From assembly GCF_055900595.2 (NCBI RefSeq), contig NZ_CM148325.1: DNA of 64,000 bases. The stretch is one strand, 5' to 3'. Positions within the stretch are counted from its first letter, which is position 1; every line of letters begins with the position of its first letter. Below are positions 10,541-45,750 of the stretch, piece by piece. The position numbers and the translations under genes were made by a program. Under the pieces are notes generated by a model that did not search any database, was not told the DNA's origin, and worked only from the letters and a program-made list of their open reading frames with translations.

Positions 10541-13500
10541 CTAATCTCTGTCACGGAAACTACCGACTGTCTGGCGGATACGGCGTTCCATTTCCGCACG
10601 GACGGCATCACCCACCATTTTTGCCAGTTCGCGCGGGTTTTGCGTGTGAACATCATGCAGGTGAATATGCAGTTCGCCAGTTAATCCCCATGGTGCCGGC
10701 TCACTCTGGCGCGGTCGGGGCGATGCGGGGGATATGGGCTGGCGCACAGCCTCAACCACCGGACGGGATGTTGCCGCCATCACTGGTGTCATTAGCGGGG
10801 AGAACGTCGGCATGACATCGTGAGTCATAACCGGTTTGATCACCGGCGGAACCACTGGCGTAATATTACCGGACAGTACCGGACGGACGACCGGAGGAAT
10901 AACCGGCACATTATTCACGGACACCACCGGCTTCACGACCGGCGACACGTTCGCCGTGGTGGATATCAGCGGCGAAACACTGACAGGCGGTGGCGCTGGC
11001 AGCGGTGGCAACGAAGGCACACTGACCGACGGCACCTGCGGCAGTCTGACAGGTGGCTCACTGACACTACCCGGTAACAGGGAAGCTGCTCGGTTAAAGC
11101 GTTCCTCCTTCCACTCACCACGAACGGCCAGCGCTTCCGGCAGGTTTTTAAAGATAATATCGCCGGGACCAGCGCGTTTTTTCGCCTGTTTCGCCTCATC
11201 CAGCAGACCACCGGTGTTATCGACGATTTTGTTCAGGCGGCGCATAGTGCCGGTATTCTCCCCCGTCAGGGGTGGTTGCCCCCCTTTGGGTTTTTCGCCG
11301 TCTTTTTTATCCTCGTCCTTTTTCGGCGGATTAATGACGTTAACATCCGCCAGAAGCATGGCAGCTTTCTCGTTCAGCAACTCCTTCTGTTTTAGTTCTT
11401 CCGCCTTTTTCCGGGCGCGCTCAACCGCCGACGGAATCAGCCCGAGTTTTTCCAGCACCCGGGTTAATGAGTCAATCAGCAGCGTAACCGGACCGGTCAC
11501 CAGATTGCTGATAAACTCCCCGACCTTCTGCCCGAACGTACGCCCGGCTTCCGTGCACTTGTCCAGCTCATCCTTTGTTGTGCTTACCGGCGCGAACAAA
11601 TCCACGAACCACTGCCACACACGCCCGATTGTCTGCCCGACATACTCAAACAGCGGTCCCAGTGGTGCCACAGCCTCGCGCAGTGGCGTAAGCCCCTGCC
11701 ACAGGCCGGACAAGAACCCGCCCACGACAGCCTTCAGCTGGTCCCAGTGCCGCCAGATAAGCACTGCCGCACCGACCAGTGTCGCCACCACAAGGCCCAC
11801 CGGACTTAACAGAAAACCCAGCGCCCCGCCAAGTGCGCCCACCGCACCACTCACCATCCCCCACAGTGCGGGCAGACCTGACAGTCTGAGCGCCAGTATT
11901 CCGATACCGCGCCCCAGTGAAATCAGTGCGCCGCCAGGTGAAGTGAACGCAGCCAGCAGACCACCACGCAGCGCGCCAAGTCCCGCCTGCACACCACGAA
12001 GCCGCCCCGCAACTACGCCCAGCAGTGCAGCAAACCGTCCGGCACCGGAGGTGATACCGACAAACAGCACGCGCCAGCCACCGATACCGCCCAGCGGACC
12101 ACCGAGTACGCCGCGCAGCTGCGTCAGTAACGGCAGCGCACGACCGAGGCCGGATGTGCCGGTCAGCAGGGCAAACCCAAGACGCAGTTTTGCCAGCGGC
12201 CCCATCAACACACCAGTGGCAAGTGACAGCGCCCCCATGGCCGCAACCGCAGCCAGCAGTACACCACCGGCAATCAGCAGTTGTTTTGTCAGTTCAGGGT
12301 GCGCCTGAGCCAGCGCGGTGACTTTCGCAATAACCCGGGTGAACGACTGCGTGACAGAACGCAGCGGCCCGTCAACGAGGTCAGCGACACGGATACGCAG
12401 TCCTTCCCATGCGCTGTTCAGTGATTTCAGGTCACCGTCCAGGTTATCAGCCATAACACGGGCAGTGTGATTAAGTTCCCCGGTGGCCAGTTCAATCTCC
12501 TGCGTAAGACGGGGAAGATTATTTTCCCCCGCCGCAGTGACAAGATTCATCAGGGAAACATAGGACTCCTGCCCGGCAATAGCCCTGAAAAAGGAGACCT
12601 GCGCGGCATTACCGTATTTTCGGGTGGCCTGGTACAGCTCATTCAGGATATTTTCCATCCGGCGCATGTTCCCGTAAGCATCCTGCGTCTCCACGCCAAG
12701 CTCTTTCAGTGCCATTGCAGCGGCCTTCGGCGGATCAACCAGACGTGACAGACTGGCACGCAGCGCCGTACCTGCATCACTTCCACGGATCCCCACACTG
12801 CCAAGGACACCCGTCATGGCTGCCGCCTGTTCAAGGGACAGGCCAAGTGAAGCTGCAACCGGACCCGTGTACTTCATGGTTTCACCCAGCGAACGGAGAT
12901 CCGTATTGGTTCGTGTGAAGGTGGCGGCCAGCGTGTCACCCACGCGATCCATCTGGTCAGCGGACAGACCAAACTGTGTGAGGATATTCGAACTGATATC
13001 GGCAGTCTGTCCCAGGTCCATCCCTGCAGCCATTGCCAGATCAAGCACGCCGGGTAGCGCCGCCTGTATGGCCTGTGGTGTGAAGCCGGCCATGGCAAGG
13101 AACGCCTGACCGCTGGCAGCATCACCGGCGGTAAACTGCGTTTCAGAGCCCAGCTTAATGGCCTGTTCGCGCAGCGCCTTAAACTGCGGACTGTTTTTGT
13201 CAATACGGGTCAGCGCCTGGACGCGCGACATCTCCTTACCAAAACTGACCGCCGGTTGCAGGAAACGTCCGGCCGCATAGCCGCCTGCCGCCGCCGTACC
13301 AACCGCCGTAAGTCCGACCGTTTTAAGTTTTCCCGCCGTCTCCTGAGCACGGGAATATTGCTGGCGTGCCTGCGTGACACGTGCCAGCGCCTGCCGTTCG
13401 CGTTCCAGCTGGTCGTTGTATTGCTGTGTTCGCCGTATGGCCTGTTGAATGGTGTTGTCACTGCCGGAAAGCGCAATACCGTGGCGCCGCAGCTCACCAC

Positions 13501-13888
13501 CCAGTTCGCGCATTCGCTGAACTTCACGCGCACGGACCTCATTGAGACGCTCAAGTTTGAGGCTCAAATCGTTCATCAGCTTTTTCTGTTTGTCAGACAG
13601 CACGGTTCCGGCGCGCTGAATTTGCTGAAGTGCGCTTAACTGGCGTTGCGCCCTGACAATGCCGTTTCCGGCCTTGTTTGCAGCCTCGCGGGCGCGATCA
13701 AATGAACGGGCGTGGCGTTCCAGGTTTTTGATCGCACCCTGCGTTCTCTGTATGGAGTCGCCAAGCTGGCCCATCATGCGACGGGCGTTTTCGGTGGGAC
13801 GGGTCAGCCTGTCAACAGCGCTGAAGGCGACCCGTATATCAAGCGTTTTCATGCTCTGCGTTCCCGCTGCGAAGGGCCGCCCGCTCAC
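10541..13888 (-). CDS. Tail tape measure protein, P2 gpT-like
   Basis: 1115-aa ORF; coiled-coil N-terminal region, Gly/Ala-rich hydrophobic centre, Pro/Val-rich C-terminal part; track start is GTG at 13888, an in-frame ATG also lies at 13852. Confidence 0.8.
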   Translation of the reverse strand: MSGRPFAAGTQSMKTLDIRVAFSAVDRLTRPTENARRMMGQLGDSIQRTQGAIKNLERHARSFDRAREAANKAGNGIVRAQRQLSALQQIQRAGTVLSDKQKKLMNDLSLKLERLNEVRAREVQRMRELGGELRRHGIALSGSDNTIQQAIRRTQQYNDQLERERQALARVTQARQQYSRAQETAGKLKTVGLTAVGTAAAGGYAAGRFLQPAVSFGKEMSRVQALTRIDKNSPQFKALREQAIKLGSETQFTAGDAASGQAFLAMAGFTPQAIQAALPGVLDLAMAAGMDLGQTADISSNILTQFGLSADQMDRVGDTLAATFTRTNTDLRSLGETMKYTGPVAASLGLSLEQAAAMTGVLGSVGIRGSDAGTALRASLSRLVDPPKAAAMALKELGVETQDAYGNMRRMENILNELYQATRKYGNAAQVSFFRAIAGQESYVSLMNLVTAAGENNLPRLTQEIELATGELNHTARVMADNLDGDLKSLNSAWEGLRIRVADLVDGPLRSVTQSFTRVIAKVTALAQAHPELTKQLLIAGGVLLAAVAAMGALSLATGVLMGPLAKLRLGFALLTGTSGLGRALPLLTQLRGVLGGPLGGIGGWRVLFVGITSGAGRFAALLGVVAGRLRGVQAGLGALRGGLLAAFTSPGGALISLGRGIGILALRLSGLPALWGMVSGAVGALGGALGFLLSPVGLVVATLVGAAVLIWRHWDQLKAVVGGFLSGLWQGLTPLREAVAPLGPLFEYVGQTIGRVWQWFVDLFAPVSTTKDELDKCTEAGRTFGQKVGEFISNLVTGPVTLLIDSLTRVLEKLGLIPSAVERARKKAEELKQKELLNEKAAMLLADVNVINPPKKDEDKKDGEKPKGGQPPLTGENTGTMRRLNKIVDNTGGLLDEAKQAKKRAGPGDIIFKNLPEALAVRGEWKEERFNRAASLLPGSVSEPPVRLPQVPSVSVPSLPPLPAPPPVSVSPLISTTANVSPVVKPVVSVNNVPVIPPVVRPVLSGNITPVVPPVIKPVMTHDVMPTFSPLMTPVMAATSRPVVEAVRQPISPASPRPRQSEPAPWGLTGELHIHLHDVHTQNPRELAKMVGDAVRAEMERRIRQTVGSFRDRD

Positions 13889-14365
13889 GCCAGGCGACCA
13901 CCTCGCCGGGATCCATCAGGAAGATTTCAGCGGGAGACCAGTTGAAAATAACGGCGATATCCGCCACAAAGTCTTCAATGTGCTCAAAGGGCACGACGGT
14001 TATCAGCCTGCCGTCGCCGCCCCACTCTTCCCGCCAGAGTCCTGACCGGCCAAAAAATTAACCGCCACCCCGCACAGCTGAATAAAATCAGCGGACCCCA
14101 TGCGCTTAAGCAGAACCTCGTCCAGTCGCGGCGAAGTGACGCGCGGGAGTAACTCAAACATCGCGTCCGTTTTCATGTTCAGCACGTCAAGCAGTGACAG
14201 CCCGCGCAGTGAACCGGCCTGCTGTACAGCAGGCGTGATTTCCACATACGTGATTTTTTTGTTACCGAGCACAAGGGGCGTTTTCAGCGTCACGCCGCGC
14301 TCACTGGTCACGTCCGCCGCATCAGCACCGTCAGTAACAGGGGCAACAACCGGATTTTCTTTCAT
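13839..14365 (-). CDS. Putative E+E' fusion made by programmed -1 ribosomal frameshift
   Basis: TTTTTTG on the coding strand at 14051-14057; the -1 frame stays open for about 70 codons and stops at TGA 13839-13841, just inside the tape measure 5' end. Confidence 0.45.
14003..14365 (-). CDS. Tail assembly chaperone, P2 gpE-like (zero-frame product)
   Basis: 120-aa ORF between the tube gene and tape measure gene; contains the slippery heptamer near its 3' end. Confidence 0.6.
   Translation of the reverse strand: MKENPVVAPVTDGADAADVTSERGVTLKTPLVLGNKKITYVEITPAVQQAGSLRGLSLLDVLNMKTDAMFELLPRVTSPRLDEVLLKRMGSADFIQLCGVAVNFLAGQDSGGKSGAATAG
14051..14057 (-). other. Slippery heptamer T_TTT_TTG (candidate -1 frameshift site)
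   Basis: Plus strand reads caaaaaa at 14051-14057; reverse complement is TTTTTTG in the E reading frame (AVNFLAGQ). Confidence 0.45.
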
Positions 14366-14415
14366 GCATAAAACCTCAAATCAGGGGGCGACGCCGCGCG
14401 CCGCCGTGGGAAACA

Positions 14416-14934
14416 TTAACCACCAAGACCAATCGCCGAGCGCACGCGGTCCGGGAAGACGTTTTTGCCGTCCTTGCGTTCGATGTGGTTCAGTAAATCA
14501 ATCTCCAGCACCGGACGGTCGTTAATGCTGAGTTTGTAGTAGGTACTCCTGACCGCATAGGTGTGAGACGTGACCTCACCCTGTTTTGCCTCCCCCGTAT
14601 CAATTTCCGTCACGCGGCCGCGAAGCTCAATTTCATACAGGTCGCTCTGCTCTTCATCGTTGTAGTACTCACCGACAAAGCGCAGCAGCGTACCGTCGAT
14701 CGTGCCGCCGTACTTAAGGAACAGTTCGCGGGTCGGCCCGCCCATGGTGAAACTCGCATCCAGCGCGCCGTCATCCAGACCAAGGTCGATATTCACCGCG
14801 CCGGCCATACCACCACCGCGATAGGCTTCCGTTTTACGGGTCAGTTTGGGGGGGGTGAAGCCGGTCACCCTGCCAATCTGGTTCACCCCGTCAGTAAACA
14901 GCGTGAACACCCTGAGATTTTTTGGTACGGCCAT
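14416..14934 (-). CDS. Tail tube protein, P2 gpFII-like
   Basis: 172 aa, same length as P2 FII; directly downstream of the sheath gene. Confidence 0.75.
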   Translation of the reverse strand: MAVPKNLRVFTLFTDGVNQIGRVTGFTPPKLTRKTEAYRGGGMAGAVNIDLGLDDGALDASFTMGGPTRELFLKYGGTIDGTLLRFVGEYYNDEEQSDLYEIELRGRVTEIDTGEAKQGEVTSHTYAVRSTYYKLSINDRPVLEIDLLNHIERKDGKNVFPDRVRSAIGLGG

Positions 14935-16124
14935 TAAGCACCTCCAAGCGTCGCAAATGCAGGACCAAAGAATTCATCAGTAAACGTCTGGTAAAGTTCC
15001 ATATCCTCAAGCGGCGGAACGGGCGTGTACTTGTAGCGGATACGCACGCGTCCCTGACGAAGTTCCGTGGTGCTGTTATCCACCACGTCATACCAGCACT
15101 CCGCACCAATGAGACGTCCTGACGTAACCAGCGCATCCAGTTTTGCGCGAATTGCGCTTAACACGTCTTTCACATTAGCAGGGGTCAGCGGGGCATCAAT
15201 CGTTTCAAACTGCGCTTCCGCAATGGAATCAGCCAGCACCTGAGCGGTTCGCGTGTACACCTCAAAGAGATACGCCTTCGTTTCCGGCGTACGGTTGCCC
15301 CAGAAGCGGAAACCGTTACGGCAAATGATGGTAGTGATTTCCTTGTTGTTGAGATTGTTGGCATCGCTGTCTTCGGACTGAAGGGACCAGAACACCGGGC
15401 TGGAAATACCCAGCACATTTCTTACCGGCACGTTGGACAGCGATTTATGCCAGCCCTGTTCGTGGTCAATACGTGCACGTAAACCGCAGGCGTACGCCGC
15501 AGCCGGGAAGACCTCATTAGCGCCGGATTTCGGGTTATGGGCGATGAAGTCCGGCCAGACCAGCATAAGTTCGCGCTCGTTAAATCTGGCGCGGTAGCTG
15601 ATTGCATCGGCGGGCTTCTTGCAGTTGTGACAGCCCGCGTAGACAAATGCGCGAAGTTTTTCTGCAATTACACACAGGGATTTTGTGACAGCTTCAGTAT
15701 CCAGTCCGGGAGCTGCGATGATGCGCGGACGGTAACCGATGGCATCATCCTGTTCAGCTATCAGAAGTGCATACATGCCGGTATAGTTTCCGTCATCATC
15801 AGAACCACCGATAACGAGTTTGTCCTGGGTTTGTCCTGAATGCGTCTCTTCCTTAAATTCAGGAACGCGCACCACAATCACCTTCGTGCTCACCTGGTCG
15901 GCGACAGCCTTAAGCGATTTGTAAAGCGTCCCCTTTGTGCCGGCCTTACCCAGCACATCACTGACGCGGGTCAGCAGTGTGGGTTTGTTCAGCGGGAACA
16001 GAGTTTCATCCGCGTCATCTGCCGTAGCCACAATACCAATAACACTGGAATCCACATCATTAATGGCGGTGGCAAGGCCGGTACTTTCCCTTACGCGCGC
16101 ACCATGAAAGCGTGTTTCACTCAT
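14934..16124 (-). CDS. Contractile tail sheath protein, P2 gpFI-like
   Basis: Internal ATG at 16124 (MSETRFHGARV...) gives 396 aa, same length as P2 FI; conserved motifs such as RNGFRFWGNRT. Confidence 0.8.
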   Translation of the reverse strand: MSETRFHGARVRESTGLATAINDVDSSVIGIVATADDADETLFPLNKPTLLTRVSDVLGKAGTKGTLYKSLKAVADQVSTKVIVVRVPEFKEETHSGQTQDKLVIGGSDDDGNYTGMYALLIAEQDDAIGYRPRIIAAPGLDTEAVTKSLCVIAEKLRAFVYAGCHNCKKPADAISYRARFNERELMLVWPDFIAHNPKSGANEVFPAAAYACGLRARIDHEQGWHKSLSNVPVRNVLGISSPVFWSLQSEDSDANNLNNKEITTIICRNGFRFWGNRTPETKAYLFEVYTRTAQVLADSIAEAQFETIDAPLTPANVKDVLSAIRAKLDALVTSGRLIGAECWYDVVDNSTTELRQGRVRIRYKYTPVPPLEDMELYQTFTDEFFGPAFATLGGA

Positions 16125-16200
16125 ATGTTTCACCCTTGTCTGGCTGGTTGATTTTGCGTAATCATTACCCACACACGCGGTAATCTCACCCCTTTGATGT

Positions 16201-16218
16201 TGTCTCCTGACAGCGACA
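16201..16218. promoter_or_regulatory. TGT-N12-ACA dyad, candidate Ogr/Delta-type late activator site between divergent FI and D
   Basis: tgtctcctgacagcgaca lies inside a longer palindrome (ttgttgtc...gacaacaa); about 77 bp from the FI start and about 68 bp from the D start. Confidence 0.4.
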
Positions 16219-16285
16219 ACAAAACAGCCATTCAACGCCGCTGCGGTGCATGAAACCATTACAGAACGCACCAGGAGAGAACACC

Positions 16286-17377
16286 ATGAAAGAGCTGTCA
16301 GTTACCGTTCCGTCACCGGATATCGACATCACCATCAACAACAACACACTGGCAAACCTCACAGAGCGACTCATGACGCTGACCCTGACGGATAACCGGG
16401 CCTTTGAGGCAGACCGCGTCACCCTCACCCTTGACGATACGGACGGGCAGTTACAGTTGCCACCACGTGGCGCACGCCTGAGAGTGATGATTGGCTGGCG
16501 AGGAGAATCACTGGTTAACAAGGGCACCTACGTCGTTGATGAGGTTGCGTGGGAAGGACCTCCAGATAAACTGATCATCACCGCCAGCAGCGCAGATTTT
16601 CGGGAAGAGTTCAACGTGAGGCGGGAGGTATCCTGGCACGACGTGACCGTAAAACAGGTTGTGTCAGCCATCGCTCACCGCTACGGCCTGAAGACACAGA
16701 TAAGCGAAATCCTCATGGATATCGAAATTGACCACGCTGACCAGACCGAAGAGAGCGATATATCCTTCCTGACCCGCATGGCTGAAATGCTGGGTGCGAT
16801 TGCCACCGTAAAAAACGGCAGCCTGTTATTCATTCTGCCGGGTGGCGGAACCGGGCCGGACGGAAGAGCCCTGCCTTCGTTCGCCATTACCCGCAGCAGC
16901 GGCGACAGTCACCGCTTTCGCATTGCTGACCGTGATGCGTATACGGGGGTCCGGGCGCACTGGCTCGATCTGAAGTTCGGGCAAAAGAAAAAAGTGAACG
17001 TGAAGCGACGCAGGGAAGCCGGGAAACAGAAACAGGAGAAGAGCAGCAGCCGGGAGGGTGATTACATGGAAGGCGCGGAAGGGAACGTCTACGTTCTGCG
17101 CAGGACTTACCAGAATGAAGAAACCGCACGACGTGCAGCTGCGGCAAAGTGGCAGGAGTTACAGCGGGGAGCAGCGGCATTCTCCATCACTCTGGCACGG
17201 GGTCGTGCCGACCTGTATCCCGAAATGCACGGCAGGGTAACAGGTTTTAAAAGCGAGGTGGACAATCAGGACTGGATTATTGCCAGGGTGGAGCACATCA
17301 TAGATGAAAGCGGCTTCACCACACAACTGGAGCTGGAAGCGAAAATCCCCGAATGGATAGCAGATTCAGGCGGATAA
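16286..17377 (+). CDS. Tail protein D (late control gene D family), P2 gpD-like
   Basis: ATG at 16286 preceded by aggagag; 363 aa with gpD-type motifs (LTLTDNR.FEAD, FSITLARGRADLYPE). Confidence 0.7.
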   Translation: MKELSVTVPSPDIDITINNNTLANLTERLMTLTLTDNRAFEADRVTLTLDDTDGQLQLPPRGARLRVMIGWRGESLVNKGTYVVDEVAWEGPPDKLIITASSADFREEFNVRREVSWHDVTVKQVVSAIAHRYGLKTQISEILMDIEIDHADQTEESDISFLTRMAEMLGAIATVKNGSLLFILPGGGTGPDGRALPSFAITRSSGDSHRFRIADRDAYTGVRAHWLDLKFGQKKKVNVKRRREAGKQKQEKSSSREGDYMEGAEGNVYVLRRTYQNEETARRAAAAKWQELQRGAAAFSITLARGRADLYPEMHGRVTGFKSEVDNQDWIIARVEHIIDESGFTTQLELEAKIPEWIADSGG

Positions 17378-17420
17378 AATTAAAATGAGCCATCTCCACT
17401 CAGCCAGATAAGGAGAAGCC

Positions 17421-17672
17421 ATGTTCCGTTGTCCCCTATGCGGTGCATCCGCACGTATCCGCACCAGTCGCAATGAAAATGATTCAGGCACAGTTCGCCT
17501 GAAGTACTACCAGTGCAATAACCTCGAATGCGGGATCGGCTTTACCACACTGGAGGGTTTTAACAAATTCACATCAAAACGCGCCCCGTCGCCGCAGGGT
17601 ACAGAGCGGATACCGTGGGAAGATTTTCCGGGATCTCACAGGGGGAATACTCAGATTAATCTTGATATTTAA
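17421..17672 (+). CDS. ogr: Ogr/Delta-family zinc-finger late transcription activator
   Basis: 83 aa; N-terminus MFRCPLCGASARIRTSR...YYQCNNLEC carries the four-Cys Ogr signature; last gene of the P2-type late region. Confidence 0.7.
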   Translation: MFRCPLCGASARIRTSRNENDSGTVRLKYYQCNNLECGIGFTTLEGFNKFTSKRAPSPQGTERIPWEDFPGSHRGNTQINLDI

Positions 17673-17790
17673 GAACAATAATCAGGTTGAGAGGACATCA
17701 TAAGGCAAGTAGATTAACGGCAGATACTTTCCCGCAACCACGGGCAAGTATTTAATTATCCATGATGAAATATGACCTAAATTGTTTTTT

Positions 17791-17816
17791 GCCCGCCGGA
17801 AAGCGGGCATTTTTTT
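17791..17816 (+). terminator. Intrinsic terminator (GC hairpin plus T7), first of a recurring family in the array
   Basis: gcccgccggaaagcgggc then attttttt; T-run only on the plus-strand side. Confidence 0.55.
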
Positions 17817-18030
17817 ATTCTTTTGTGGTTATGGGGTCATCAGGAACCACGTGCAGATTATATTTTTGTTTTTTTGGCGTTCCTCCGGCAGCAACGAGTT
17901 CATCAATAAGACACTGACACGCCTGAACATCCCGGGCATGTCTTAGTTTCACCTTTATTGATTTAACCTTATCCTCACCGGAGGAGAAATGCAGTTCAAT
18001 CTCAATATCGTTTCTTCGGAACAATCTCAT
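17815..18030 (-). CDS. Hypothetical small protein (71 aa) encoded in the 450-bp repeat unit; only this copy is full length
   Basis: MRLFRRNDIEIELHFSSGEDKVKS...; copy at about 19.2 kb differs by two synonymous and one non-synonymous change in the first 7 codons and is truncated to about 35 codons; third copy degenerate. Confidence 0.35.
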   Translation of the reverse strand: MRLFRRNDIEIELHFSSGEDKVKSIKVKLRHARDVQACQCLIDELVAAGGTPKKQKYNLHVVPDDPITTKE

Positions 18031-18254
18031 ACGCCCCCTGAATATATCAGAAATACTAGTATCGAAAAATGAGAAAACAGTTAGACAGGAGAAACATATT
18101 AACACAAATCATTTATACCTATAGATGAAATTATAATTTCATTCATGAATATGATAGATAACTATATTGTGAACAAAATGAAAAATGGCTAAATTAAAAA
18201 TGGGCATGGAGGAATGCCCGGTTATCAATATAATGTGACGTAGATCATTGTTTT

Positions 18255-18281
18255 GCCCGCCGGAGAGCGGGCATTTTTTTT
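18255..18281 (+). terminator. Intrinsic terminator (repeat family)
   Basis: gcccgccggagagcgggc followed by a T8 run. Confidence 0.5.
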
Positions 18282-18465
18282 GCGCCTGCCATCGAGGCGC
18301 CTTCCCTGGCGCACACAAAGCAGCCCTGATTTTCCATGAAAACTTCAGGGTTGAGCTGCGGGCACAAAGTGAGTAGATTAGCTACGGGTACCTCCCCCTG
18401 ACAACAGGAAGGGTGTCCATTATCCATGATATACAAACGAAAAGTCTTGTTTTTTGCCCGCCGAA

Positions 18466-18491
18466 GCGCGGGCATTTTTTTATGCATCAGA
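18466..18491 (+). terminator. Intrinsic terminator (repeat family), immediately upstream of the hok-like locus
   Basis: gcccgccgaagcgcgggc followed by a T7 run. Confidence 0.5.
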
Positions 18492-18607
18492 CAAGATACA
18501 GCCCACCCCAACTGACACCTGAAATATTGCCGCAACAAAAAGAAACAGTTAAATTACGCGCGGGTGCCTTTCGGCTGATGGCCGGAGGGAAAACCTGAAG
18601 GCCGGAT

Positions 18608-18841
18608 GTGGAAAGGCCCCGGAAAACATTTCTGTTTAACCGAGGCCCTAACCGCATTACCTTGACAAGTGAAAGGTTAGCGCCTCTCCGGAAAAGGAGC
18701 AAGTGCTATGTCGCAAAAATCGCTTACGGCCATCACGTTCTGCGTGACGGCAATCCTCATCATCTGGATATTGCACGGTTCGCTGTGCGAAATACGGATG
18801 AGCTTCTGGGGAGCGGAGTTTGCGGCGTTCTTACAATGTAA
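18608..18841 (+). CDS. mok-like overlapping reading frame of the hok-like locus
   Basis: 77-codon frame starting at GTG 100 nt upstream of the hok-like ATG and covering it in another frame, as in hok/mok/sok modules. Confidence 0.4.
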   Translation: MERPRKTFLFNRGPNRITLTSERLAPLRKRSKCYVAKIAYGHHVLRDGNPHHLDIARFAVRNTDELLGSGVCGVLTM

Positions 18842-18848
18842 GAAGTAA
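18708..18848 (+). CDS. Hok-family type I toxin (46 aa), apparently intact
   Basis: ATG at 18708 preceded by aaggag with 8-nt spacing; MSQKSLTAITFCVTAILIIWILHGSLCEIRMSFWGAEFAAFLQCKK has a single TM helix, the Hok SLCEIR motif and the E(F/V)AAF motif; too short for the ORF track. Confidence 0.6.
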   Translation: MSQKSLTAITFCVTAILIIWILHGSLCEIRMSFWGAEFAAFLQCKK

Positions 18849-18947
18849 GGAAACCGCGACGGGGGAGCAATCCCCCGTCAATCGGTTGCCAGGGTAAGGT
18901 CGATAAGGCACCCTATCTCACAGACATGAACAACAAACCCGCAGCAT

Positions 18948-18979
18948 AAAAACTGCGGGTTTTCTTTTTGGTGTCCTCA
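18948..18979 (+). terminator. Intrinsic terminator downstream of the hok-like gene
   Basis: cccgcag cataaaaa ctgcggg followed by tttctttttgg. Confidence 0.5.
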
Positions 18980-20612
18980 CCGACTTGAAACAGTGATCAG
19001 ACTATAAGACAAAGCCCGCAATGTTGCGGGCTTACTCTACCTCTCGAAAATGTGGTCACTGCGTGGACATACGCTGATACAAATCCTTTATATCAATAAA
19101 TTAAATCTTTGTTTTTTTCATCAACAATGATTTAACCTTATCCTCACCGGAGGAGAAATGCAGTTCAATCTCAATATCGTTTCTGTGGAACAGCCTCATA
19201 AGACAACCTCCTGAATTCATCAGAAACACAGTCAACTGAAAACCAGAAAGCAGACAAACAGTGGACACACATTAATACAAATCATTTATACCTATAGATG
19301 AAATTGCAGTTTCATCTATAACATGACAGGTAACAATATTGTGAAAAAACTCAAAACTCGTTAGATTAAAGACGGACAGAGCAATGCTACTTTATCAATA
19401 ACATGTAACCTGTACTTCCTTATTTTGCCCGCCGAAGCACGGGCATTTTTTTTGCGCCTGCCATCGAGGCGCCTTCCCTGGCGCACACAAAGCAGCCCTG
19501 ATTTTCCATGAAAACTTCAGGGTTGAGCCAAAAGCACAAAGACAGTAGATTAACCACGGGTGCCTTCCACCTGACAACAGGAAGGGTGTCCAGTATCAAT
19601 GACAGACAACTCACATTGCTGTTTTGCCCGCCGGAAAGCGGGCATTTTTTTATTCTTTTGTGGTTATTGGGTCATCAGGAACAACATGCAGATTATGCTT
19701 TGATTTTTTTGGTGTTATTACAGCAGCAACGAGTTTATTAATAAGACACTGACATGCCTGAACATCCCTGACATATCATAATTTCACTTTATTTTTTTAG
19801 CTTGTCCTTTCTGGAGCAGAAATATCTCAACATCGTTTCTGTGGAACAACCTCATTTGCCCCTGAATGTATCATAAATATCAGCATCGGAAAACCAACAG
19901 CAATACAGAAGAAACATGTTAATGCAAATCACTTATACCTATAGATGAAATTACAGTTTTGTTCATAAATATGATAAGTAACTATATTGTGAATAAAATG
20001 AAAACTAGCTAAATTAAACGTGGGCATGGTGGAATGCCTCGTAATCAATAATACATGATCCGTACTTCCTTGTTTTGCCCGCCGGAAAGCGGGCATTTTT
20101 TTGGCGGTTACCATCGCCTCACCTTCCTGGTTCACATGAAGCAACCCTGATTTTCCATGAAAACTTCAGGGTTGAGACAAAAGCACAAAGACAGTAGATT
20201 AACCACGGGTACCTTCCACCTGACAACAGGAAGGCTGTCCAGTATCAATGACAGACAACTCACATTGCTGTTTTGCCCGCCGGAAAGCGGGCTTTTTTTG
20301 GCAGTTATCATAGCCGCACCTTCCTGGCACATATGAAGCAACCCTGATTTTCCATGAAAACTTCAGGGTTGAGACAAAAGCACAAAAACAGTAGATTAAC
20401 CACGGGTGCCTGCCACCTGACAACAGGAAGGGGTGTCCATTATCCATGATATACAAACGAAAAGTCTTGTCTTTTGCCCGCCAAAGCGCGGGCATTTTTT
20501 TATGCATCAGACAAGATACAGCCCACCCCAACTAACACCTGAAATATTGCCGCAACAAAAAGAAACGGGTGCCTTTCGGCTGATGGCCGGAGGGAAAACC
20601 TGAAGACCGGAT

Positions 20613-20795
20613 GTGGAAAGGCCCCGGAAAACATCTGTGTTTAACCGAGGCCTGACCCTTCCTACCGTGACAAGTGGAAGGTTAGCGCCTCTTTGTAAAA
20701 GGAGCAAGCGCTATACCGCAAAAAACGATTATTGTTGGCATTTTATGCCTGACAATAACCCTGGTCATCTGGATGGTCCACGATTCGTTATGTGA
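20613..20795 (+). CDS. mok-like frame of the second (decayed) hok-like locus
   Basis: 60-codon frame from GTG, homologous to 18608..18841. Confidence 0.3.
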   Translation: MERPRKTSVFNRGLTLPTVTSGRLAPLCKRSKRYTAKNDYCWHFMPDNNPGHLDGPRFVM

Positions 20796-20853
20796 ATTCA
20801 GCTTTGATATCTGAGGAGCGCGTTTTGCGGCGTTCTTGCAGTGTAAACCGTAA
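20713..20853 (+). pseudogene. Decayed hok-like toxin gene (start codon lost, in-frame nonsense codon)
   Basis: Alignment to copy 1 by eye: ATG is ATA at 20713-20715 and TGG is TGA at 20812-20814; remaining frame IPQKTIIVGILCLTITLVIWMVHDSLCEFSFDI* still shows the Hok core. Confidence 0.5.
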
Positions 20854-21003
20854 GAAACCGCAGCGGGGGAGAAATTCCCCGCTATCCGGTTGTTGGGGTG
20901 GGCCGATATGGCGCCCTTTCCCTGTAGAGACAAAACAAAAAACCAGATTTGCCCGCCATTGAGAGGGCTTTTTTGTCACCCTCACCAGTGAGGGCATCAT
21001 CAT

Positions 21004-21231
21004 TCAGAGGCGCGTAAGCCACCCGGCGTTAACATCCTGCCTGTCAACCCTGGCCGCAGAGTCTGAACGGCAGGTACCGGAAGGAGTACCAAAAACATCC
21101 CTGACAAGTTCCGCCACCTTCCCGATATCATCAGGTGTCACATTCCTCACCTCGGCCGTGATCCGTGGCGTACCATCATCGTTAACAAGAGTGGCTTTAA
21201 AGCTGGTGCGAAGGGAAAACAACATCAACAT
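21004..21231 (-). CDS. Hypothetical small protein (75 aa) between the repeat array and serS
   Basis: ORF only; not recognised; absent from my recollection of the K-12 serS-dmsA spacer. Confidence 0.25.
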   Translation of the reverse strand: MLMLFSLRTSFKATLVNDDGTPRITAEVRNVTPDDIGKVAELVRDVFGTPSGTCRSDSAARVDRQDVNAGWLTRL

Positions 21232-21386
21232 CCCCTCCCTTTGGTTCGTTGCACTGACGGCACGACACCATCAGGAAAAAGAAAAGCCCACAACGTCAGT
21301 ATTGTGGACTTTTTTCTTCAAAGATGGACATTATCTGGACACATGAAAATAAAATCCATTTATTTTCATATAGTTAAGTACCATGC

Positions 21387-21410
21387 AAAAGCGCCCGCAG
21401 GCGCTTTTTA
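21387..21410 (-). terminator. serS terminator (bidirectional-looking hairpin)
   Basis: aaaagcgcc cgca ggcgctttt immediately 3' of the serS stop. Confidence 0.55.
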
Positions 21411-43102: not shown

Positions 43103-44095
43103 ATGGTGAAATCGACGTTATGTATAACCATTGATTTCATGAATATGTCGCAGCTAACTGAACGGACCTTTACGCCATCTGAATCTCTCAGCAGCCTGTC
43201 ACTTTTTCTTAGTCTGGCACGTGGACAGTGTCGGCCGGGTAAATTTTGGCATCGCCGTAGTTTTCGCCAGAAATTTTTGCTGCGCTCGTTGATTATGCCG
43301 CGTTTAAGCGTTGAGTGGATGAACGAACTTTCCCACTGGCCGAATCTCCATGTGTTGTTAACGCGCCAGCCGCGACTGCCTGTGCGTCTGCATCGCCCTT
43401 ACCTTGCGGCGAATCTTAGCCGCAAGCAATTGCTGGAGGCGTTACGTTACCATTATGCATTGCTTCGTGCCTGCATGTCGGCAGAAGAATTCAGCTTATA
43501 TTTGAATACTCCCGGGCTGCAACTGGCGAAGCTGGAAGGCAAAAACGGCGAGCAGTTCACACTTGAGCTGACCATGATGATCTCAATGGATAAAGAAGGT
43601 GACAGCACAATCCTGTTCCGCAACAGCGAAGGTATTCCTCTGGCAGAGATCACCTTTACTCTGTGTGAATACCAGGGGAAAAGAACAATGTTTATTGGCG
43701 GGCTGCAAGGTGCGAAATGGGAAATTCCACATCAGGAAATCCAGAATGCGACGAAAGCCTGCCACGGGCTATTTCCCAAACGTCTCGTGATGGAAGCGGC
43801 CTGTCTGTTTGCCCAACGTTTGCAGGTAGAGCAGATCATTGCCGTCAGCAATGAAACACATATTTACCGCAGCCTGCGTTATCGCGATAAAGAAGGCAAG
43901 ATCCATGCTGATTACAACGCGTTCTGGGAGTCGGTTGGCGGCGTATGTGATGCTGAACGCCATTACCGCCTTCCGGCACAGATAGCACGAAAAGAGATTG
44001 CCGAAATCGCCAGTAAAAAACGGGCTGAATACCGTCGGCGCTATGAGATGCTCGACGCTATTCAGCCACAAATGGCCACGATGTTTCGCGGTTAA
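43103..44095 (+). CDS. ybjX: DUF535/VirK-family protein YbjX
   Basis: 330-aa ORF in the conserved position between macA and ybjD; exact start not verified. Confidence 0.7.
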   Translation: MVKSTLCITIDFMNMSQLTERTFTPSESLSSLSLFLSLARGQCRPGKFWHRRSFRQKFLLRSLIMPRLSVEWMNELSHWPNLHVLLTRQPRLPVRLHRPYLAANLSRKQLLEALRYHYALLRACMSAEEFSLYLNTPGLQLAKLEGKNGEQFTLELTMMISMDKEGDSTILFRNSEGIPLAEITFTLCEYQGKRTMFIGGLQGAKWEIPHQEIQNATKACHGLFPKRLVMEAACLFAQRLQVEQIIAVSNETHIYRSLRYRDKEGKIHADYNAFWESVGGVCDAERHYRLPAQIARKEIAEIASKKRAEYRRRYEMLDAIQPQMATMFRG

Positions 44096-45750
44096 TCCGC
44101 GCGACCGCGCGCCAGCCACAGCACGCGTGAGAACATTTTTTTCAGCAGCGTCGGTACGGAATCCACACCACGACGTCCTGCCTCCATTGCCACTTCAATG
44201 GCAAGATCGGGTTTGGAAGAGCGATGGATCGCTTTCGAGATAATTTTACGCAGATTCATCGGCACATTTTCCGGGATCTGCGCCACGCGGTGGAACACAT
44301 CGGAAAATCCCTGGCGATACATAAAATGTTCCATATCCAGCGCCGGTAACGCCGTTAAATGTTCTCGTTCGGCTTCCCGATCGTTATTCAACAGGCTGCG
44401 TACCGTAGCGGCATATTTCTTCCCTGCTTCATCGCCATCGACCAGTACATGCCATTCAATCCCCATCCGGCGGGCGAATTTAACCAGTGGCTTTAGCCCG
44501 GACTGGGCAAACTCAATGACCTTGATCCCTTCGGCATCAAAATGATGTCCACACTGACGCGCCAGTTCATTGATAACCCAGGTTTCCGTTTCGCCTTCCA
44601 CCAGCAGCCAGCAGCGAGCAAACAGCGATGACGGACGGTTAAAACGAATGTGGAAAGAGATACGTCGGCTGTCTTCGGTACTCAAGCCACTCGGACCCAA
44701 ACGCCAGGCGGCAACGCGAGAGGACTCACGTACCAGACGGCAAACATGCTCTACCGGCGTTAACGAAAGCAACTCACCCGAGTTGGTGGTGGCAATGCGC
44801 TGCAATGGCAGAAGATTCAACAGATGCCAGGCAACTGAAAGCATAATGGGGTGTAAACGGGTTTCTGGATCTTCGATCAGCAACAATGGACGGGCGTCTT
44901 TATCCAGTCGCAATGTGCCTTTTGCCTGCAATAAAGTAGCAAACAGGCCGAGCAAAATAACCCGATACGAGCGCCCTCCTGGTCGGTCAATCATCCGGTT
45001 GATGATATCCAGATAGCGCCAGCTTCGTTGCTCATTACTGGCCCGCCGCCGCATTAAACGATATCGCGCTTGTCCGGCCCCCTGTTCAGAGAAATAATGC
45101 TCAAGCAGCTGTACCATTGCGGAAAGTCCCTGACGAATCTGCCCATCAGAGAGATTTTGCGGATGTGAGGATAACTCACGGGCGAGGAAATCGAGCTGGC
45201 GCGCGGTGACTTCCACATTAGGGACATTTGGCACCGTGCCGTTACGAATACGGCGCATAAAACGGGCATCACGCAAGCGCAGCACCGGCATTAAACGCAC
45301 CAGATGGCGTGCCTGATCGTTAATATCCTCGACATCAATCGGATGTCCGTCTTTATCGAGAAAACTGCGGAGTGTCATCACACTGCCATCTTCCGCACTC
45401 TCTCCTTCCAGGCGATAAAAAATTCGATGATAACCATCGGTGCATGGCGTCCAGCACGCTTCCAGCGGCCGATAGCGGCGAACCCGATGTCGGCCTGGCA
45501 GCGATTCGCGGAAGGTCAAAATAATATGCAGATGATGTTCTCGCCCGTTGATATCTCCCGGCGGGAACCAGAAATCGTCGCGCTCAAAATGGTAGAGATC
45601 TGATTCTGGCGATAGCAGCAGAGTTAAGGCGTCCAGCAAGCTGGATTTACCCCACGCGTTCTCCCCAATCAGGACGTTGTTTTGTTCCAGCATCAACGAC
45701 AAACGGTTGATACCGCGAAAACCCACAATTTCAACGCGCTCAAGAATCAT
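44092..45750 (-). CDS. ybjD: OLD-family ATPase/nuclease homologue YbjD (AAA-like ATPase plus TOPRIM domain)
   Basis: 552 aa, MILERVEIVGFRGINRLSLMLEQNNVLIGENAWGKSSLLDALTLLL...; conserved position next to aqpZ. Confidence 0.8.
   Translation of the reverse strand: MILERVEIVGFRGINRLSLMLEQNNVLIGENAWGKSSLLDALTLLLSPESDLYHFERDDFWFPPGDINGREHHLHIILTFRESLPGRHRVRRYRPLEACWTPCTDGYHRIFYRLEGESAEDGSVMTLRSFLDKDGHPIDVEDINDQARHLVRLMPVLRLRDARFMRRIRNGTVPNVPNVEVTARQLDFLARELSSHPQNLSDGQIRQGLSAMVQLLEHYFSEQGAGQARYRLMRRRASNEQRSWRYLDIINRMIDRPGGRSYRVILLGLFATLLQAKGTLRLDKDARPLLLIEDPETRLHPIMLSVAWHLLNLLPLQRIATTNSGELLSLTPVEHVCRLVRESSRVAAWRLGPSGLSTEDSRRISFHIRFNRPSSLFARCWLLVEGETETWVINELARQCGHHFDAEGIKVIEFAQSGLKPLVKFARRMGIEWHVLVDGDEAGKKYAATVRSLLNNDREAEREHLTALPALDMEHFMYRQGFSDVFHRVAQIPENVPMNLRKIISKAIHRSSKPDLAIEVAMEAGRRGVDSVPTLLKKMFSRVLWLARGRAD

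What the first reader, a model, noticed from the sequence alone, without database searches (positions are those of the whole stretch)
44092..45750. Chromosomal OLD-family nuclease homologue (ybjD) in the same window as a P2-type prophage
YbjD combines an ATPase domain with a TOPRIM-type nuclease domain, the architecture of the P2 Old exclusion protein. Here it is a core chromosomal gene in its usual place between ybjX and aqpZ, not part of the prophage, so it is expected rather than novel. The P2 old gene itself would lie in the part of the prophage outside this window.
Basis: established knowledge. Interest (0 to 1): 0.2.

Follow-up and report, generated by a model that had tools for sequence, protein, structure and literature searches.

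The report
Core E. coli OLD-family nuclease gene ybjD
This is the ordinary, already-described E. coli core gene ybjD (recently proposed name oldB), an ATPase-plus-Toprim nuclease distantly related to phage P2's Old protein; it is unrelated to the P2-like prophage 23 kb away, and that prophage's closest complete copy carries no old gene.

Summary
A 552-aa ORF lies at 44092-45750 (-), between ybjX and aqpZ. It has an N-terminal ABC-type ATPase (DUF2813, E 2e-160) and an OLD-like TOPRIM domain (E 4e-16). Its predicted fold matches solved OLD nucleases best (GajA, Thermus OLD, retron-Eco8 OLD).

It is a core gene. The locus is in 5,424 of 5,426 complete E. coli genomes and is syntenic out to Serratia and Pectobacterium. 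The ORF is intact in 77 of 78 evaluable species representatives. Selection is strongly purifying (within E. coli, 36-55 synonymous against 0-2 nonsynonymous differences). No helicase, reverse transcriptase or other partner gene is adjacent, so it is a "Class 1" OLD by context.

All of this is already published: Schiltz 2019 (classification) and Atahualpa 2026 (proposed name oldB; anti-phage phenotypes only on overexpression).

Window 1-21,401 is indeed half of a P2-family prophage, inserted in the serS terminator. That is not borne out in the closest complete copy (99.8% identical), which has no old or tin.

One mildly interesting tension remains. The Toprim catalytic residues are invariant across the whole family and are the most conserved part of the protein, yet the published phenotype does not need Toprim. 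The native function is therefore probably still unknown.

Verdict: real, ordinary, already known; low interest.

The parts
44092..45750 (-). ybjD (proposed name oldB) coding sequence, 552 aa plus stop. The protein is identical to WP_000599806.1.
   Evidence: ORF list. Pfam DUF2813 + OLD-like_TOPRIM. Annotated ybjD in 5,424 of 5,426 E. coli genomes. Amino-acid identity to strain M19 / strain 135 YbjD.
44620..45750 (-). ABC-type ATPase region (residues 1-377). It comprises nucleotide-binding lobes (about residues 1-160 and 286-377) split by a helical insert (about 161-285), which is the presumed dimerisation domain.
   Evidence: Pfam DUF2813 1-375, AAA_15, AAA_21, SMC_N. AlphaFold secondary structure shows helices 177-277, with low pLDDT at 162-176 and 222-244. 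Profile hits to GajA, Thermus OLD, PtuA, Rad50 and SMC heads.
45643..45666 (-). Walker A / P-loop, G29-E-N-A-W-G-K35-S36
   Evidence: K35 is conserved in 77/77 Enterobacterales orthologues and 41/46 family members. K35A was studied in Atahualpa 2026.
44863..44886 (-). Walker B (L289-LLIEDPE-296), followed by the D-loop His300
   Evidence: Aligns to P2 Old 'LIFIDEPELYLHP'. E293, D294, E296 and H300 are 77/77 in orthologues. D294 is variable in the wider family: D27/E13/N4.
44779..44790 (-). H-loop position, T321-T-N323-S324. Asn replaces the canonical His (P2 Old and GajA have STHS).
   Evidence: Pairwise alignments. N323 is 77/77 in orthologues and N33/H6/Y4 in the wider family. Schiltz 2020 notes that Asn occurs in some Class 1 OLDs and that H310A abolishes Thermus OLD ATPase activity.
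44371..44619 (-). Toprim domain (residues 378-460). It carries E385/E387/E389 (44584-44598) and D438-G-D440 (44431-44439); the inferred metal-A ligands are E385, D438 and D440.
   Evidence: Pfam PF20469 376-440. These residues are invariant in 46/46 family members and 77/77 orthologues. This is the lowest-dN part of the protein (0.013 against Salmonella). Residue map from Schiltz 2020.
44095..44370 (-). C-terminal helical region (residues 461-552). It has an invariant D472-x-E474 (44329-44337; inferred metal-B ligands together with E389) and an invariant K513 (44212-44214; inferred catalytic Lys).
   Evidence: Invariant in 46/46 and 77/77 sequences. All-helical in the model. Covered by PADLOC GajA model PDLC00094, residues 260-549, E 7e-80. 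Equivalence to P2 Old D541/E543/K550 and to Burkholderia OLD T506/E508/K562 is inferred from the motif pattern, not aligned directly.
44092..44095 (.). 4-bp convergent overlap of the ybjD and ybjX stop codons (TTAA), with no terminator between the genes
   Evidence: Sequence. The same overlap occurs in Salmonella (L009 7656-7659). ybjD-ybjX is listed as a convergent excludon from RNA-seq (PMC12288877).
45751..45859 (-). ybjD 5' region. It contains the Shine-Dalgarno GGAGG (45755-45759), a conserved block CCGTTATACTGC with a -10-like TATACT (45788-45799), and a conserved block CATTTTTCAGACATTTGCC (45841-45859).
   Evidence: E. coli / Salmonella alignment. The consensus promoter scan found nothing above chance, so the promoter assignment is only an inference.
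1..21401 (.). Context, not part of ybjD: the right-hand half of a P2-family (Peduoviridae) prophage, from partial capsid gene N through ogr, plus a 3.8-kb cargo region. It is integrated in the serS terminator, with att core AAAAGCGCCCGCAGG at 21387-21401.
   Evidence: P2 protein matches at 32-63% identity. Strain 135 annotation. Junction compared against the prophage-free strain E200086.

Best explanation
The ORF is ybjD (proposed name oldB), a vertically inherited core gene of Enterobacterales. It encodes a stand-alone ('Class 1' by gene context) OLD-family enzyme.

Architecture: an N-terminal ABC/SMC-like ATPase with a helical insert, fused to a Toprim nuclease and a helical C-terminal region.

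Shown here:
- the domain architecture and the fold;
- complete conservation of the Walker A/B residues and of the Toprim acidic residues;
- an isolated gene context;
- conserved synteny;
- strong purifying selection.

Inferred mechanism:
- The protein oligomerises through the helical insert.
- ATP binding holds it in a restrained state. This rests on the published K35A mutant being more toxic. Binding is probably accompanied by little hydrolysis, because the H-loop His is replaced by a fixed Asn.
- On an unknown trigger, the two-metal Toprim centre (E385/D438/D440 and E389/D472/E474, assisted by K513) nicks or cleaves nucleic acid.

The physiological substrate (DNA, as for Thermus, Vibrio and GajA OLDs; or tRNA, as for P2 Old) and the trigger are unknown.

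The gene is unrelated to the P2-family prophage that happens to share the window.
For: Architecture:
- Pfam DUF2813 E 2e-160 plus OLD-like_TOPRIM E 4e-16.
- PADLOC GajA and Old models, E 7e-80 and 2e-24.
- Family profile against PDB sequences: GajA 1e-20, Thermus Class 1 OLD (6p74) 1.7e-18, retron-Eco8 OLD 2e-8.
- AlphaFold model with pLDDT 83 and pTM 0.81. Its top Foldseek hits are GajA 3e-19, Thermus OLD 5e-17 and Eco8 OLD 2e-14.
- 28% identity to P2 Old over 198 aa, E 4e-12, with aligned Walker B, Toprim Glu and DxD motifs.

Core status and vertical inheritance:
- Present in 5,424 of 5,426 E. coli genomes.
- Same locus in Salmonella.
- The 80 best of at least 496 loci in species-representative genomes are all Enterobacterales, and identity tracks phylogeny from 97% down to 66%.
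- Synteny hcp-lysO-(aqpZ)-ybjD-(ybjX)-macAB is kept out to Serratia. YbjD diverges at the same rate as MacAB and LysO.
- 77 of 78 evaluable ORFs are intact, with all motif residues conserved 77/77.

Selection:
- Within E. coli, omega is about 0.00-0.02.
- Against Salmonella, dN is 0.065 overall and 0.013 for the Toprim domain.

No partner gene:
- Neighbours are ybjX and aqpZ. The only large flanking ORFs in the 80 loci are Hcp and MacB.
- Seven more distant DUF2813 contexts are also isolated genes.

Published experiments:
- The gene is expressed.
- The knockout shows no phage phenotype.
- Overexpression inhibits phages Bas18 and Bas20.
- K35A is more toxic than wild type.
- Expression is not lethal in a recBC-ts strain.
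Against: - The mechanism is inferred, not shown. No biochemistry exists for YbjD.
- In the only functional study, the Toprim domain and its three acidic residues were dispensable for the overexpression anti-phage phenotype, and the chromosomal knockout had no phage phenotype. A nuclease-based defence role is therefore not demonstrated.
- 'Class 1' is a context label, not a clade. By sequence and fold YbjD is at least as close to Class 2 GajA as to Thermus or P2 OLD.
- The assignment of D472/E474/K513 as metal-B ligands and catalytic Lys rests on invariance and motif pattern, not on a direct structural superposition.
Confidence: 0.85

Rival explanations
1. YbjD is not primarily an immune gene. 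It is a domesticated housekeeping OLD nuclease acting in DNA or RNA metabolism, comparable to the archaeal OLD ATPase Cran1 that functions in cell-cycle progression. On this reading, the published anti-phage effects are overexpression side-effects of the ATPase domain.
For: - Core gene and syntenic across Enterobacterales, diverging at the same rate as neighbouring housekeeping genes.
- Omega of about 0.01 within E. coli, at least as low as aqpZ and ybjX. This is unlike typical accessory, fast-evolving defence genes. For contrast, the pentapeptide-repeat islet 12 kb away is present in only 21% of genomes, with alleles about 82% identical.
- More distant family members sit among housekeeping genes: ribH-nusB-thiL-pgpA / dxs-ispA-xseB, and anmK / hslUV / argS.
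- The knockout has no phage phenotype and Toprim is dispensable for the overexpression phenotype. Yet the Toprim catalytic residues are invariant in 46/46 and 77/77 sequences, and this is the most constrained domain.
- Cran1 provides a precedent.
Against: - The gene is non-essential (a Keio knockout exists) and no growth or repair phenotype has been reported.
- Overexpression effects are phage-specific (Bas18/20, Bas64-68) at non-toxic induction levels.
- Every other characterised bacterial OLD is a defence protein.
- Core location does not exclude immunity.
Confidence: 0.35
2. YbjD is an orphaned Gabija nuclease: a Class 2 GajA that lost its GajB helicase and persists as a remnant.
For: - The best PADLOC models are all 'GajA' (PDLC00094, E 7e-80).
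- Top sequence and fold matches among solved structures are GajA.
- The C-terminal region is an all-helical bundle, as in Class 2.
- Gabija-like uvrD/'ybjD' gene pairs exist on SGI1 islands.
Against: - No UvrD/GajB-like ORF lies next to ybjD in the window, in Salmonella, in the 80 Enterobacterales loci or in 7 distant DUF2813 contexts.
- The gene has been inherited vertically at one locus since before the Enterobacteriaceae/Yersiniaceae split, under strong purifying selection. It is therefore not a decaying remnant.
- At 552 aa it is shorter than GajA (575-598 aa chains).
- Thermus Class 1 OLD scores nearly as well as GajA.
Confidence: 0.07
3. The gene belongs to, or derives from, the P2-type prophage in the window. 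That is, it is the prophage's old gene, displaced.
For: Both lie in the same 64-kb window, and YbjD is homologous to P2 Old.
Against: - It is 22.7 kb from the prophage att site, separated by serS, rarA, lolA, ftsK, lrp, trxB, cydDC, aat, infA, clpAS, cspD, macAB and ybjX.
- It is present at 100% identity in prophage-free strain E200086 and in essentially all E. coli genomes.
- It is only 28% identical to P2 Old over a third of its length.
- Its GC content is typical of the chromosome.
Confidence: 0.01
4. The gene is a non-functional relic (a pseudogene in the making).
For: There is no knockout phenotype, and the ATPase H-loop is non-canonical.
Against: - The ORF is intact in 77 of 78 species representatives, with all catalytic residues conserved.
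- Synonymous differences outnumber nonsynonymous ones by 36-55 to 0-2 within E. coli.
- The transcript is detected.
- Asn323 itself is fixed, not degenerate.
Confidence: 0.01

Closest known systems
E. coli K-12 YbjD (b0876), proposed name OldB; Class 1 OLD (Schiltz et al. 2019, PMC6755086; Atahualpa et al. 2026, PMC13261556)
   Same: It is the same gene: same locus (ybjX-ybjD-aqpZ), same length of 552 aa, and allelic differences of 0-2 residues from other E. coli lineages.
   Different: Nothing of substance differs. The window carries the allele WP_000599806.1, in a lineage whose DNA is about 96-97% identical to most E. coli.
Bacteriophage P2 Old (NP_046798, 586 aa), the archetypal Class 1 OLD
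   Same: - ATPase + Toprim architecture.
- Aligned Walker A, Walker B, D-loop His, Toprim Glu and DxD motifs.
- A single gene with no partner.
   Different: - Only 28% identity over 198 aa.
- P2 Old is phage-borne in the variable tin/old slot, whereas ybjD is a chromosomal core gene.
- P2 Old has an H-loop His (H332, essential), where YbjD has Asn323.
- P2 Old kills recBC cells and cleaves tRNA; YbjD is reported not to kill a recBC-ts strain.
Thermus scotoductus OLD (PDB 6P74), the only full-length Class 1 structure
   Same: - Profile E 1.7e-18 and Foldseek E 5e-17.
- ABC ATPase with an inserted dimerisation domain plus Toprim.
- Corresponding metal-A and metal-B acidic residues.
   Different: - 17% identity.
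[quoted passage not shown]
- Thermus OLD has H310 in the H-loop.
Gabija GajA (Class 2 OLD; e.g. Bacillus cereus VD045, PDB 8SM3 / 8U7I / 8X5I)
   Same: - Best PADLOC, sequence-profile and fold matches.
- ATP acts as a negative regulator of GajA, which is consistent with the toxic YbjD K35A mutant.
   Different: - GajA works in a 4:4 complex with the GajB helicase, encoded adjacently; ybjD never has such a neighbour.
- 12-15% structural-alignment identity.
Vibrio cholerae Vc OLD (Class 1; Patel & Seed 2025, PMC12392090) and archaeal Cran1 (PMC12796447)
   Same: - Vc OLD is a stand-alone bacterial OLD with anti-phage activity.
- Cran1 is a chromosomal OLD ATPase with a non-defence cellular role. 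It is the precedent for the housekeeping reading.
   Different: - Vc OLD needs its ATPase residues for defence, is a nickase, and is found on a mobile or accessory background.
- Cran1 is essential and archaeal.
- YbjD is non-essential, and its ATP-binding mutant retains the phenotype.

Membership tests
OLD family nucleases (ATPase + Toprim) | [quoted passage not shown] | tested here: met
   Pfam DUF2813, AAA_15, AAA_21 and SMC_N. GxxxxGKS at residues 29-36 and hhhhEDPE at 289-296. Conserved 77/77 in orthologues.
OLD family nucleases (ATPase + Toprim) | C-terminal Toprim domain with an invariant Glu and a DxD motif (metal A) | tested here: met
   PF20469, E 3.8e-16. E385, D438 and D440 are invariant in 46/46 and 77/77 sequences.
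OLD family nucleases (ATPase + Toprim) | Second acidic cluster (metal B) and a basic residue contributed by the region after Toprim | tested here: met
   E389, D472, E474 and K513 are invariant in 46/46 and 77/77 sequences. Their equivalence to P2 Old E402/D541/E543/K550 is inferred from the pattern, not from a superposition.
OLD family nucleases (ATPase + Toprim) | Overall fold similar to solved OLD structures, including a helical insert in the ATPase | tested here: met
   AlphaFold pLDDT 83. Foldseek top 21 hits are all OLD proteins: GajA, Thermus OLD and Eco8 OLD.
OLD family nucleases (ATPase + Toprim) | Metal-dependent nuclease and ATPase activity | not testable with these tools
   No biochemistry has been published for YbjD.
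OLD family nucleases (ATPase + Toprim) | Canonical H-loop histidine of the ABC ATPase | tested here: not met
   Asn323 replaces His. It is fixed 77/77 in orthologues and is N33/H6 in the wider family. Schiltz 2020 records this as a known variant among Class 1 OLDs, so it does not exclude membership.
Class 1 OLD (defined by context: isolated gene) | No conserved adjacent partner (no UvrD/GajB helicase, no reverse transcriptase/ncRNA, no AriB) | tested here: met
   Neighbours are ybjX (DUF535) and aqpZ. No Rfam retron or ncRNA is nearby. The 80 Enterobacterales loci have only Hcp and MacB as large flanking ORFs. Distant relatives are also isolated.
Class 2 OLD / Gabija GajA | [quoted passage not shown] | tested here: not met
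   No such ORF appears in any context examined.
Class 2 OLD / Gabija GajA | Match to GajA sequence models | tested here: met
   PADLOC PDLC00094, E 7e-80, and 18 further GajA models. This shows homology only; on its own it does not establish a Gabija system.
Class 3 (retron) and Class 4 (PARIS AriA) OLD-type ATPases | Adjacent reverse transcriptase + msr/msd ncRNA, or an adjacent AriB Toprim gene | tested here: not met
   Matches to Eco8, PtuA and AriA models cover only the first ~50 residues, the P-loop. No partner ORFs or RNAs are present.
P2 old (prophage lysogenic-conversion gene) | Located in the tin/old slot of a P2-family prophage, between gene A and the portal gene Q | tested here: not met
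   ybjD lies 22.7 kb outside the prophage and is present in prophage-free genomes. The slot of the closest complete prophage holds unrelated small ORFs.
P2 old (prophage lysogenic-conversion gene) | RecBC-sensing lethality / exclusion of lambda | not testable with these tools
   The published test was negative for YbjD in a recBC-ts strain.

The most novel reading that the evidence does not exclude
The DUF2813/YbjD clade is a domesticated OLD nuclease lineage, vertically inherited since before the Enterobacteriaceae-Yersiniaceae split. It has a fixed hydrolysis-attenuating H-loop Asn and a perfectly conserved two-metal Toprim site. On this reading its real, Toprim-dependent function is a housekeeping or stress-linked nucleic-acid transaction rather than the Toprim-independent overexpression anti-phage effect reported so far. 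It would be the bacterial counterpart of archaeal Cran1.
Probability: 0.3. Interest if true: 0.5.

Novelty: already known. Interest (0 to 1): 0.17.

Why it matters
As stated, the finding does not matter much. It correctly recognises a known core gene of a known family.

The residual value is a sharpened question for people who work on OLD proteins. The only functional data for YbjD say that the Toprim domain is dispensable. Comparative data here say the opposite about its importance in nature:
- the catalytic residues are invariant across a family that diverges to 28% identity;
- the Toprim domain has the lowest dN in the protein;
- omega is about 0.01 within E. coli;
- synteny is conserved across Enterobacterales.

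This argues that the native role of the E. coli core OLD nuclease is still unidentified. It could be tested directly with chromosomal Toprim point mutants.

The work also shows that a homologue of a phage gene sitting near a prophage of that phage's family can be pure coincidence.

Tried and rejected
1. I first assumed the window was colinear with the 100%-matching strain E200086. This was wrong. Only positions from 21,387 onward match, E200086 lacks the prophage, and it carries a satellite between clpS and cspD that the window lacks. I then used strain 135 as the prophage proxy.

2. Two sandbox runs failed because loci are bundled several to a file.

3. I searched the complete prophage for old and tin by tblastn and scanned the ORFs of the tin/old slot against Pfam and PADLOC. 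Nothing was found.

4. I suspected that the 1,000-1,900-aa relatives were OLD-helicase fusions. They are DUF2813 + Toprim proteins with large unannotated insertions and extensions, and no helicase domain.

5. I looked for GajB partners among relatives that match mainly in the C-terminal half. None was found.

6. E. coli-Salmonella dN/dS is unreliable because dS is saturated (above 1; NaN in one segment). I used dN alone and repeated the test within E. coli.

7. The promoter/terminator consensus scan around ybjD found nothing above the shuffled expectation for promoters. A perfect inverted repeat, GTGATG-T-CATCAC at 45818-45830, is not conserved in Salmonella and was dropped as a candidate operator.

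8. I considered the H-loop His-to-Asn change as a possible novelty. It is already noted for Class 1 OLDs in Schiltz 2020.
Full report
**Observation**

The window has a 552-aa ORF at exactly 44092..45750 on the minus strand. It has an ATG start and a strong Shine-Dalgarno sequence (GGAGG, 45755-45759). Its stop codon overlaps that of the convergent ybjX gene within a TTAA at 44092-44095. Upstream, aqpZ runs divergently (NCBIfam aquaporin Z, E 1e-130).

**Is it the core chromosomal ybjD?**

A 4-kb query across ybjX-ybjD-aqpZ matches 5,424 of 5,426 complete E. coli genomes. In 5,393 of them it matches over at least 80% of its length, always annotated 'ybjD: ATP-dependent endonuclease'.

Salmonella has the same arrangement: lysO-ybjD-ybjX-macAB-cspD-clpSA. 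Only aqpZ is missing, and the 4-bp convergent overlap is kept.

A scan of one genome per species found at least 496 loci. The 80 best are all Enterobacterales, and identity falls smoothly with phylogenetic distance:

| Taxon | Identity to window YbjD |
|---|---|
| E. albertii | 97% |
| Citrobacter / Salmonella | 90-91% |
| Klebsiella / Enterobacter | 84-86% |
| Buttiauxella / Cedecea | 80-81% |
| Mangrovibacter | 75% |
| Pectobacterium / Serratia / Brenneria | 66-68% |

Synteny hcp-lysO-(aqpZ)-ybjD-(ybjX)-macAB persists to Serratia. YbjD diverges at the same rate as MacA/B and LysO, whereas ybjX and aqpZ are variably present. Of 78 evaluable orthologues, 77 are intact at 550-554 aa.

**Relation to the prophage**

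I first assumed the window was colinear with the 100%-matching strain E200086. That was wrong: only positions from 21,387 onward match.

Window 1-21,401 is the right-hand half of a P2-family prophage.
- Eighteen P2 proteins, from capsid N to ogr, match at 32-63% identity.
- The FI-FII-E-T-U tail block is inverted relative to P2.
- The element sits in the serS terminator, with a 15-bp att core (AAAAGCGCCCGCAGG) at 21,387-21,401.

ybjD lies 22.7 kb away, beyond about 20 core genes. It is present in the prophage-free E200086 at 100% identity. It is not part of the prophage.

The closest complete copy of the prophage is in E. coli strain 135, which is 99.8% identical over window 1-22,000.
- It has int, C, Cox, A, portal, terminase, scaffold and capsid genes in the unseen half.
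- It has no old or tin homologue (best tblastn E 0.31).
- The ORFs in the A-to-Q slot match nothing in Pfam or PADLOC.

Strain 135's chromosome is only 95-96.6% identical to the window. So the same phage sits in two lineages, and this is evidence by proxy for a slot known to be variable.

**What the protein is**

YbjD aligns to P2 Old at 28% identity over 198 aa (E 4e-12). The alignment covers Walker B, the D-loop His, the Toprim Glu and DxD; the P-loop aligns separately.

PADLOC's best models are GajA (PDLC00094, E 7e-80 over residues 260-549), with the Old model at 2e-24. A family profile built from 46 sequences hits GajA (1e-20) and the Class 1 Thermus OLD 6P74 (1.7e-18) among solved structures.

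An AlphaFold model (pLDDT 83, pTM 0.81) shows an ABC-type head split by a helical insert (helices at about 177-277), then a Toprim domain and a four-helix C-terminal region. Its top 21 Foldseek hits are all OLD proteins: GajA 3e-19, Thermus OLD 5e-17 and retron-Eco8 OLD 2e-14. PtuA, Rad50 and SMC heads follow. Membership of the OLD family is therefore established by sequence, motifs and fold.

**Class**

No UvrD/GajB-like helicase, reverse transcriptase, retron RNA or AriB lies next to ybjD in any of these contexts:
- the window;
- Salmonella;
- the 80 Enterobacterales loci, where the only large flanking ORFs are Hcp and MacB;
- seven more distant DUF2813 contexts, which sit among housekeeping-type genes.

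By the context definition it is Class 1, as already stated by Schiltz et al. 2019, who used YbjD as their search seed. By sequence and fold it is no closer to the characterised Class 1 proteins than to GajA. This fits the published view that the classes are not clades.

**Motifs and selection**

Across 46 family members (down to 28% identity), the following residues are invariant: E385, G386, E387, E389, D438, G439, D440, D472, E474, K513 and P514.

The ATPase motifs are looser:
- K35 is conserved in 41/46.
- Walker B D294 is D27/E13/N4.
- The H-loop position is Asn in 33 sequences and His in only 6.

Within the Enterobacterales orthologues, every one of these residues, including Asn323, is conserved 77/77.

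Using the residue map of Schiltz 2020, E385/D438/D440 correspond to metal A, and E389/D472/E474 to metal B. K513 is the likely catalytic Lys; that last assignment is inferred. The same paper notes that Asn replaces the H-loop His in a fraction of Class 1 OLDs and that H310A abolishes Thermus OLD ATPase activity. The substitution is therefore known, and it suggests weak hydrolysis.

Selection is strongly purifying.
- Within E. coli there are 36-55 synonymous against 0-2 nonsynonymous differences (omega about 0.00-0.02), at least as constrained as aqpZ and ybjX.
- Against Salmonella, dS is saturated, so only dN is informative. dN is 0.065 overall, equal to lysO and hcr, lower than macAB at 0.11, and far lower than ybjX at 0.38.
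- The Toprim domain is the most constrained segment, with dN 0.013.

**Literature**

Atahualpa et al. 2026 report the following:
- ybjD is expressed.
- The Keio knockout has no phage phenotype.
- pBAD overexpression reduces plaquing of Bas18 and Bas20 and shrinks plaques of Bas64-68.
- K35A keeps the phenotype and is more toxic.
- Unlike P2 Old, YbjD does not kill a recBC-ts strain.

They propose the name oldB. ybjD-ybjX is also listed as a convergent 'excludon'. 'ybjD' in SGI1 papers refers to a Gabija-like uvrD/OLD pair named after the COG.

**Mechanism, committed**

YbjD is an oligomeric ABC-ATPase/Toprim nuclease.
- ATP binding restrains it. This rests on the published K35A toxicity, the fixed H-loop Asn and the GajA precedent.
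- An unknown trigger releases two-metal cleavage of nucleic acid by the invariant Toprim centre.

The architecture, conservation and gene context are shown. The regulation, the substrate and the biological role are inferred.

The main rival (about 0.3-0.35) is that the clade is a domesticated housekeeping nuclease, like archaeal Cran1, and that the overexpression phage phenotypes are incidental. This would reconcile 'Toprim dispensable' with 'Toprim invariant'. The orphan-Gabija, prophage-derived and pseudogene readings are rejected by context, distribution and selection data.

**Regulation**

The consensus promoter scan found nothing above chance. Alignment with Salmonella shows two conserved upstream blocks: CATTTTTCAGACATTTGCC at 45841-45859, and CCGTTATACTGC, which contains a -10-like TATACT, at 45788-45799. 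A perfect inverted repeat at 45818-45830 is not conserved. Regulation remains unresolved.

**Verdict**

The finding is real, correctly interpreted and already known. The only part that fails is the expectation that the prophage's unseen half carries old. Interest is low (about 0.17). The residual point of interest is the conflict between evolutionary constraint on the nuclease and its reported dispensability.

Noticed in passing
window 17,620-21,400: This is a 3.8-kb ORF-poor, low-GC cargo region between prophage ogr and attR; in P2, ogr abuts attP.
- It holds two hok/sok modules: sub-threshold Rfam sok hits at 18562-18721 and 20567-20724, and a Hok ORF at 18708-18848.
- It holds eight + strand copies of the same strong terminator (TGCCCGCCGGAAAGCGGGCA followed by T7) at 17790, 18254, 18455, 19426, 19625, 20076, 20275 and 20475.
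- The copies form two subtypes, each with its own conserved -35/-10 pair about 100 nt upstream (TTGAGA..TAGATT in 5 copies; TTGTGA..TAAATT in 3 copies). Each has a 5' stem-loop kept through different sequences and a conserved UAUCMAUGAU stretch.
- This is a candidate family of ~95-nt prophage small RNAs. It has no Rfam match, it is unannotated in strain 135, and only the hok/sok part is found in sequenced phages.
   Followed up: partly
window 57,831-59,615 (-), islet about 57.7-60.2 kb: A 594-aa pentapeptide-repeat protein sits alone in a GC 0.31 islet between ybjQ and ybjP.
- It is accessory, present in 1,128 of 5,426 E. coli genomes.
- It has two deeply diverged alleles: at least 99% identity in 15 genomes, and about 82% identity in about 1,100 genomes including O157:H7.
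- It has no PADLOC match.
- This is the opposite population pattern to ybjD, 12 kb away.
   Followed up: partly
window 36,441-36,468 (-): A single type I-F CRISPR repeat (Rfam CRISPR-DR4, 50 bits) lies between tRNA-Ser/infA and clpA. Strain E200086 has two repeats with a 32-nt spacer at the same place. This looks like the known relic of the E. coli CRISPR4 (I-F) locus; that attribution comes from my own knowledge and was not tested.
   Followed up: partly
L001 28,840-39,395 (E. coli E200086); the corresponding empty site is at window about 39,396-39,416: The strain whose backbone is identical to the window carries a ~10.5-kb phage-satellite-like element between clpS and cspD. It encodes an integrase, primase, Icd-like protein, major capsid, head decoration and small terminase proteins. 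The window lacks it; a 21-bp overlap at 39,396-39,416 marks the attachment site.
   Followed up: no
window 10,149-16,106 versus P2 (L004 17,652-22,791): The tail operon FI-FII-E-T-U of this P2-family prophage is inverted relative to D-ogr and to the P2 gene order. In strain 135 the tape-measure gene is annotated as fragmented, whereas the window has one 1,115-aa ORF at 10,541-13,888 (-).
   Followed up: no
window 1-22,000 versus 22,000-64,000, compared with strain 135 (L003, L097): The prophage is 99.8% identical between the window and strain 135, but the flanking chromosome is only 94.8-96.6% identical. The same phage has therefore integrated at the same serS-terminator site in two different E. 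coli lineages.
   Followed up: partly
proteins P0149, P0162, P0163, P0165, P0175 (metagenomic relatives): Some DUF2813 + Toprim relatives are 1,000-1,900 aa long. They have hundreds of residues inserted inside the ATPase head (SMC/Rad50-like position) and long C-terminal extensions with no Pfam match. They are not helicase fusions.
   Followed up: no
window 43,139-44,095 (+), ybjX: ybjX (VirK/DUF535), the convergent overlapping neighbour of ybjD, evolves far faster than everything around it. It is 56% identical between E. coli and Salmonella at the amino-acid level (dN 0.38, against 0.02-0.11 for its neighbours). It is missing from 24 of the 80 Enterobacterales loci; some of these absences may reflect short contigs.
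   Followed up: no
window 63,888-63,968 (-): Rfam naRNA4 (nucleoid-associated ncRNA 4 / CssrE), 78 bits, downstream of the art operon.
   Followed up: no
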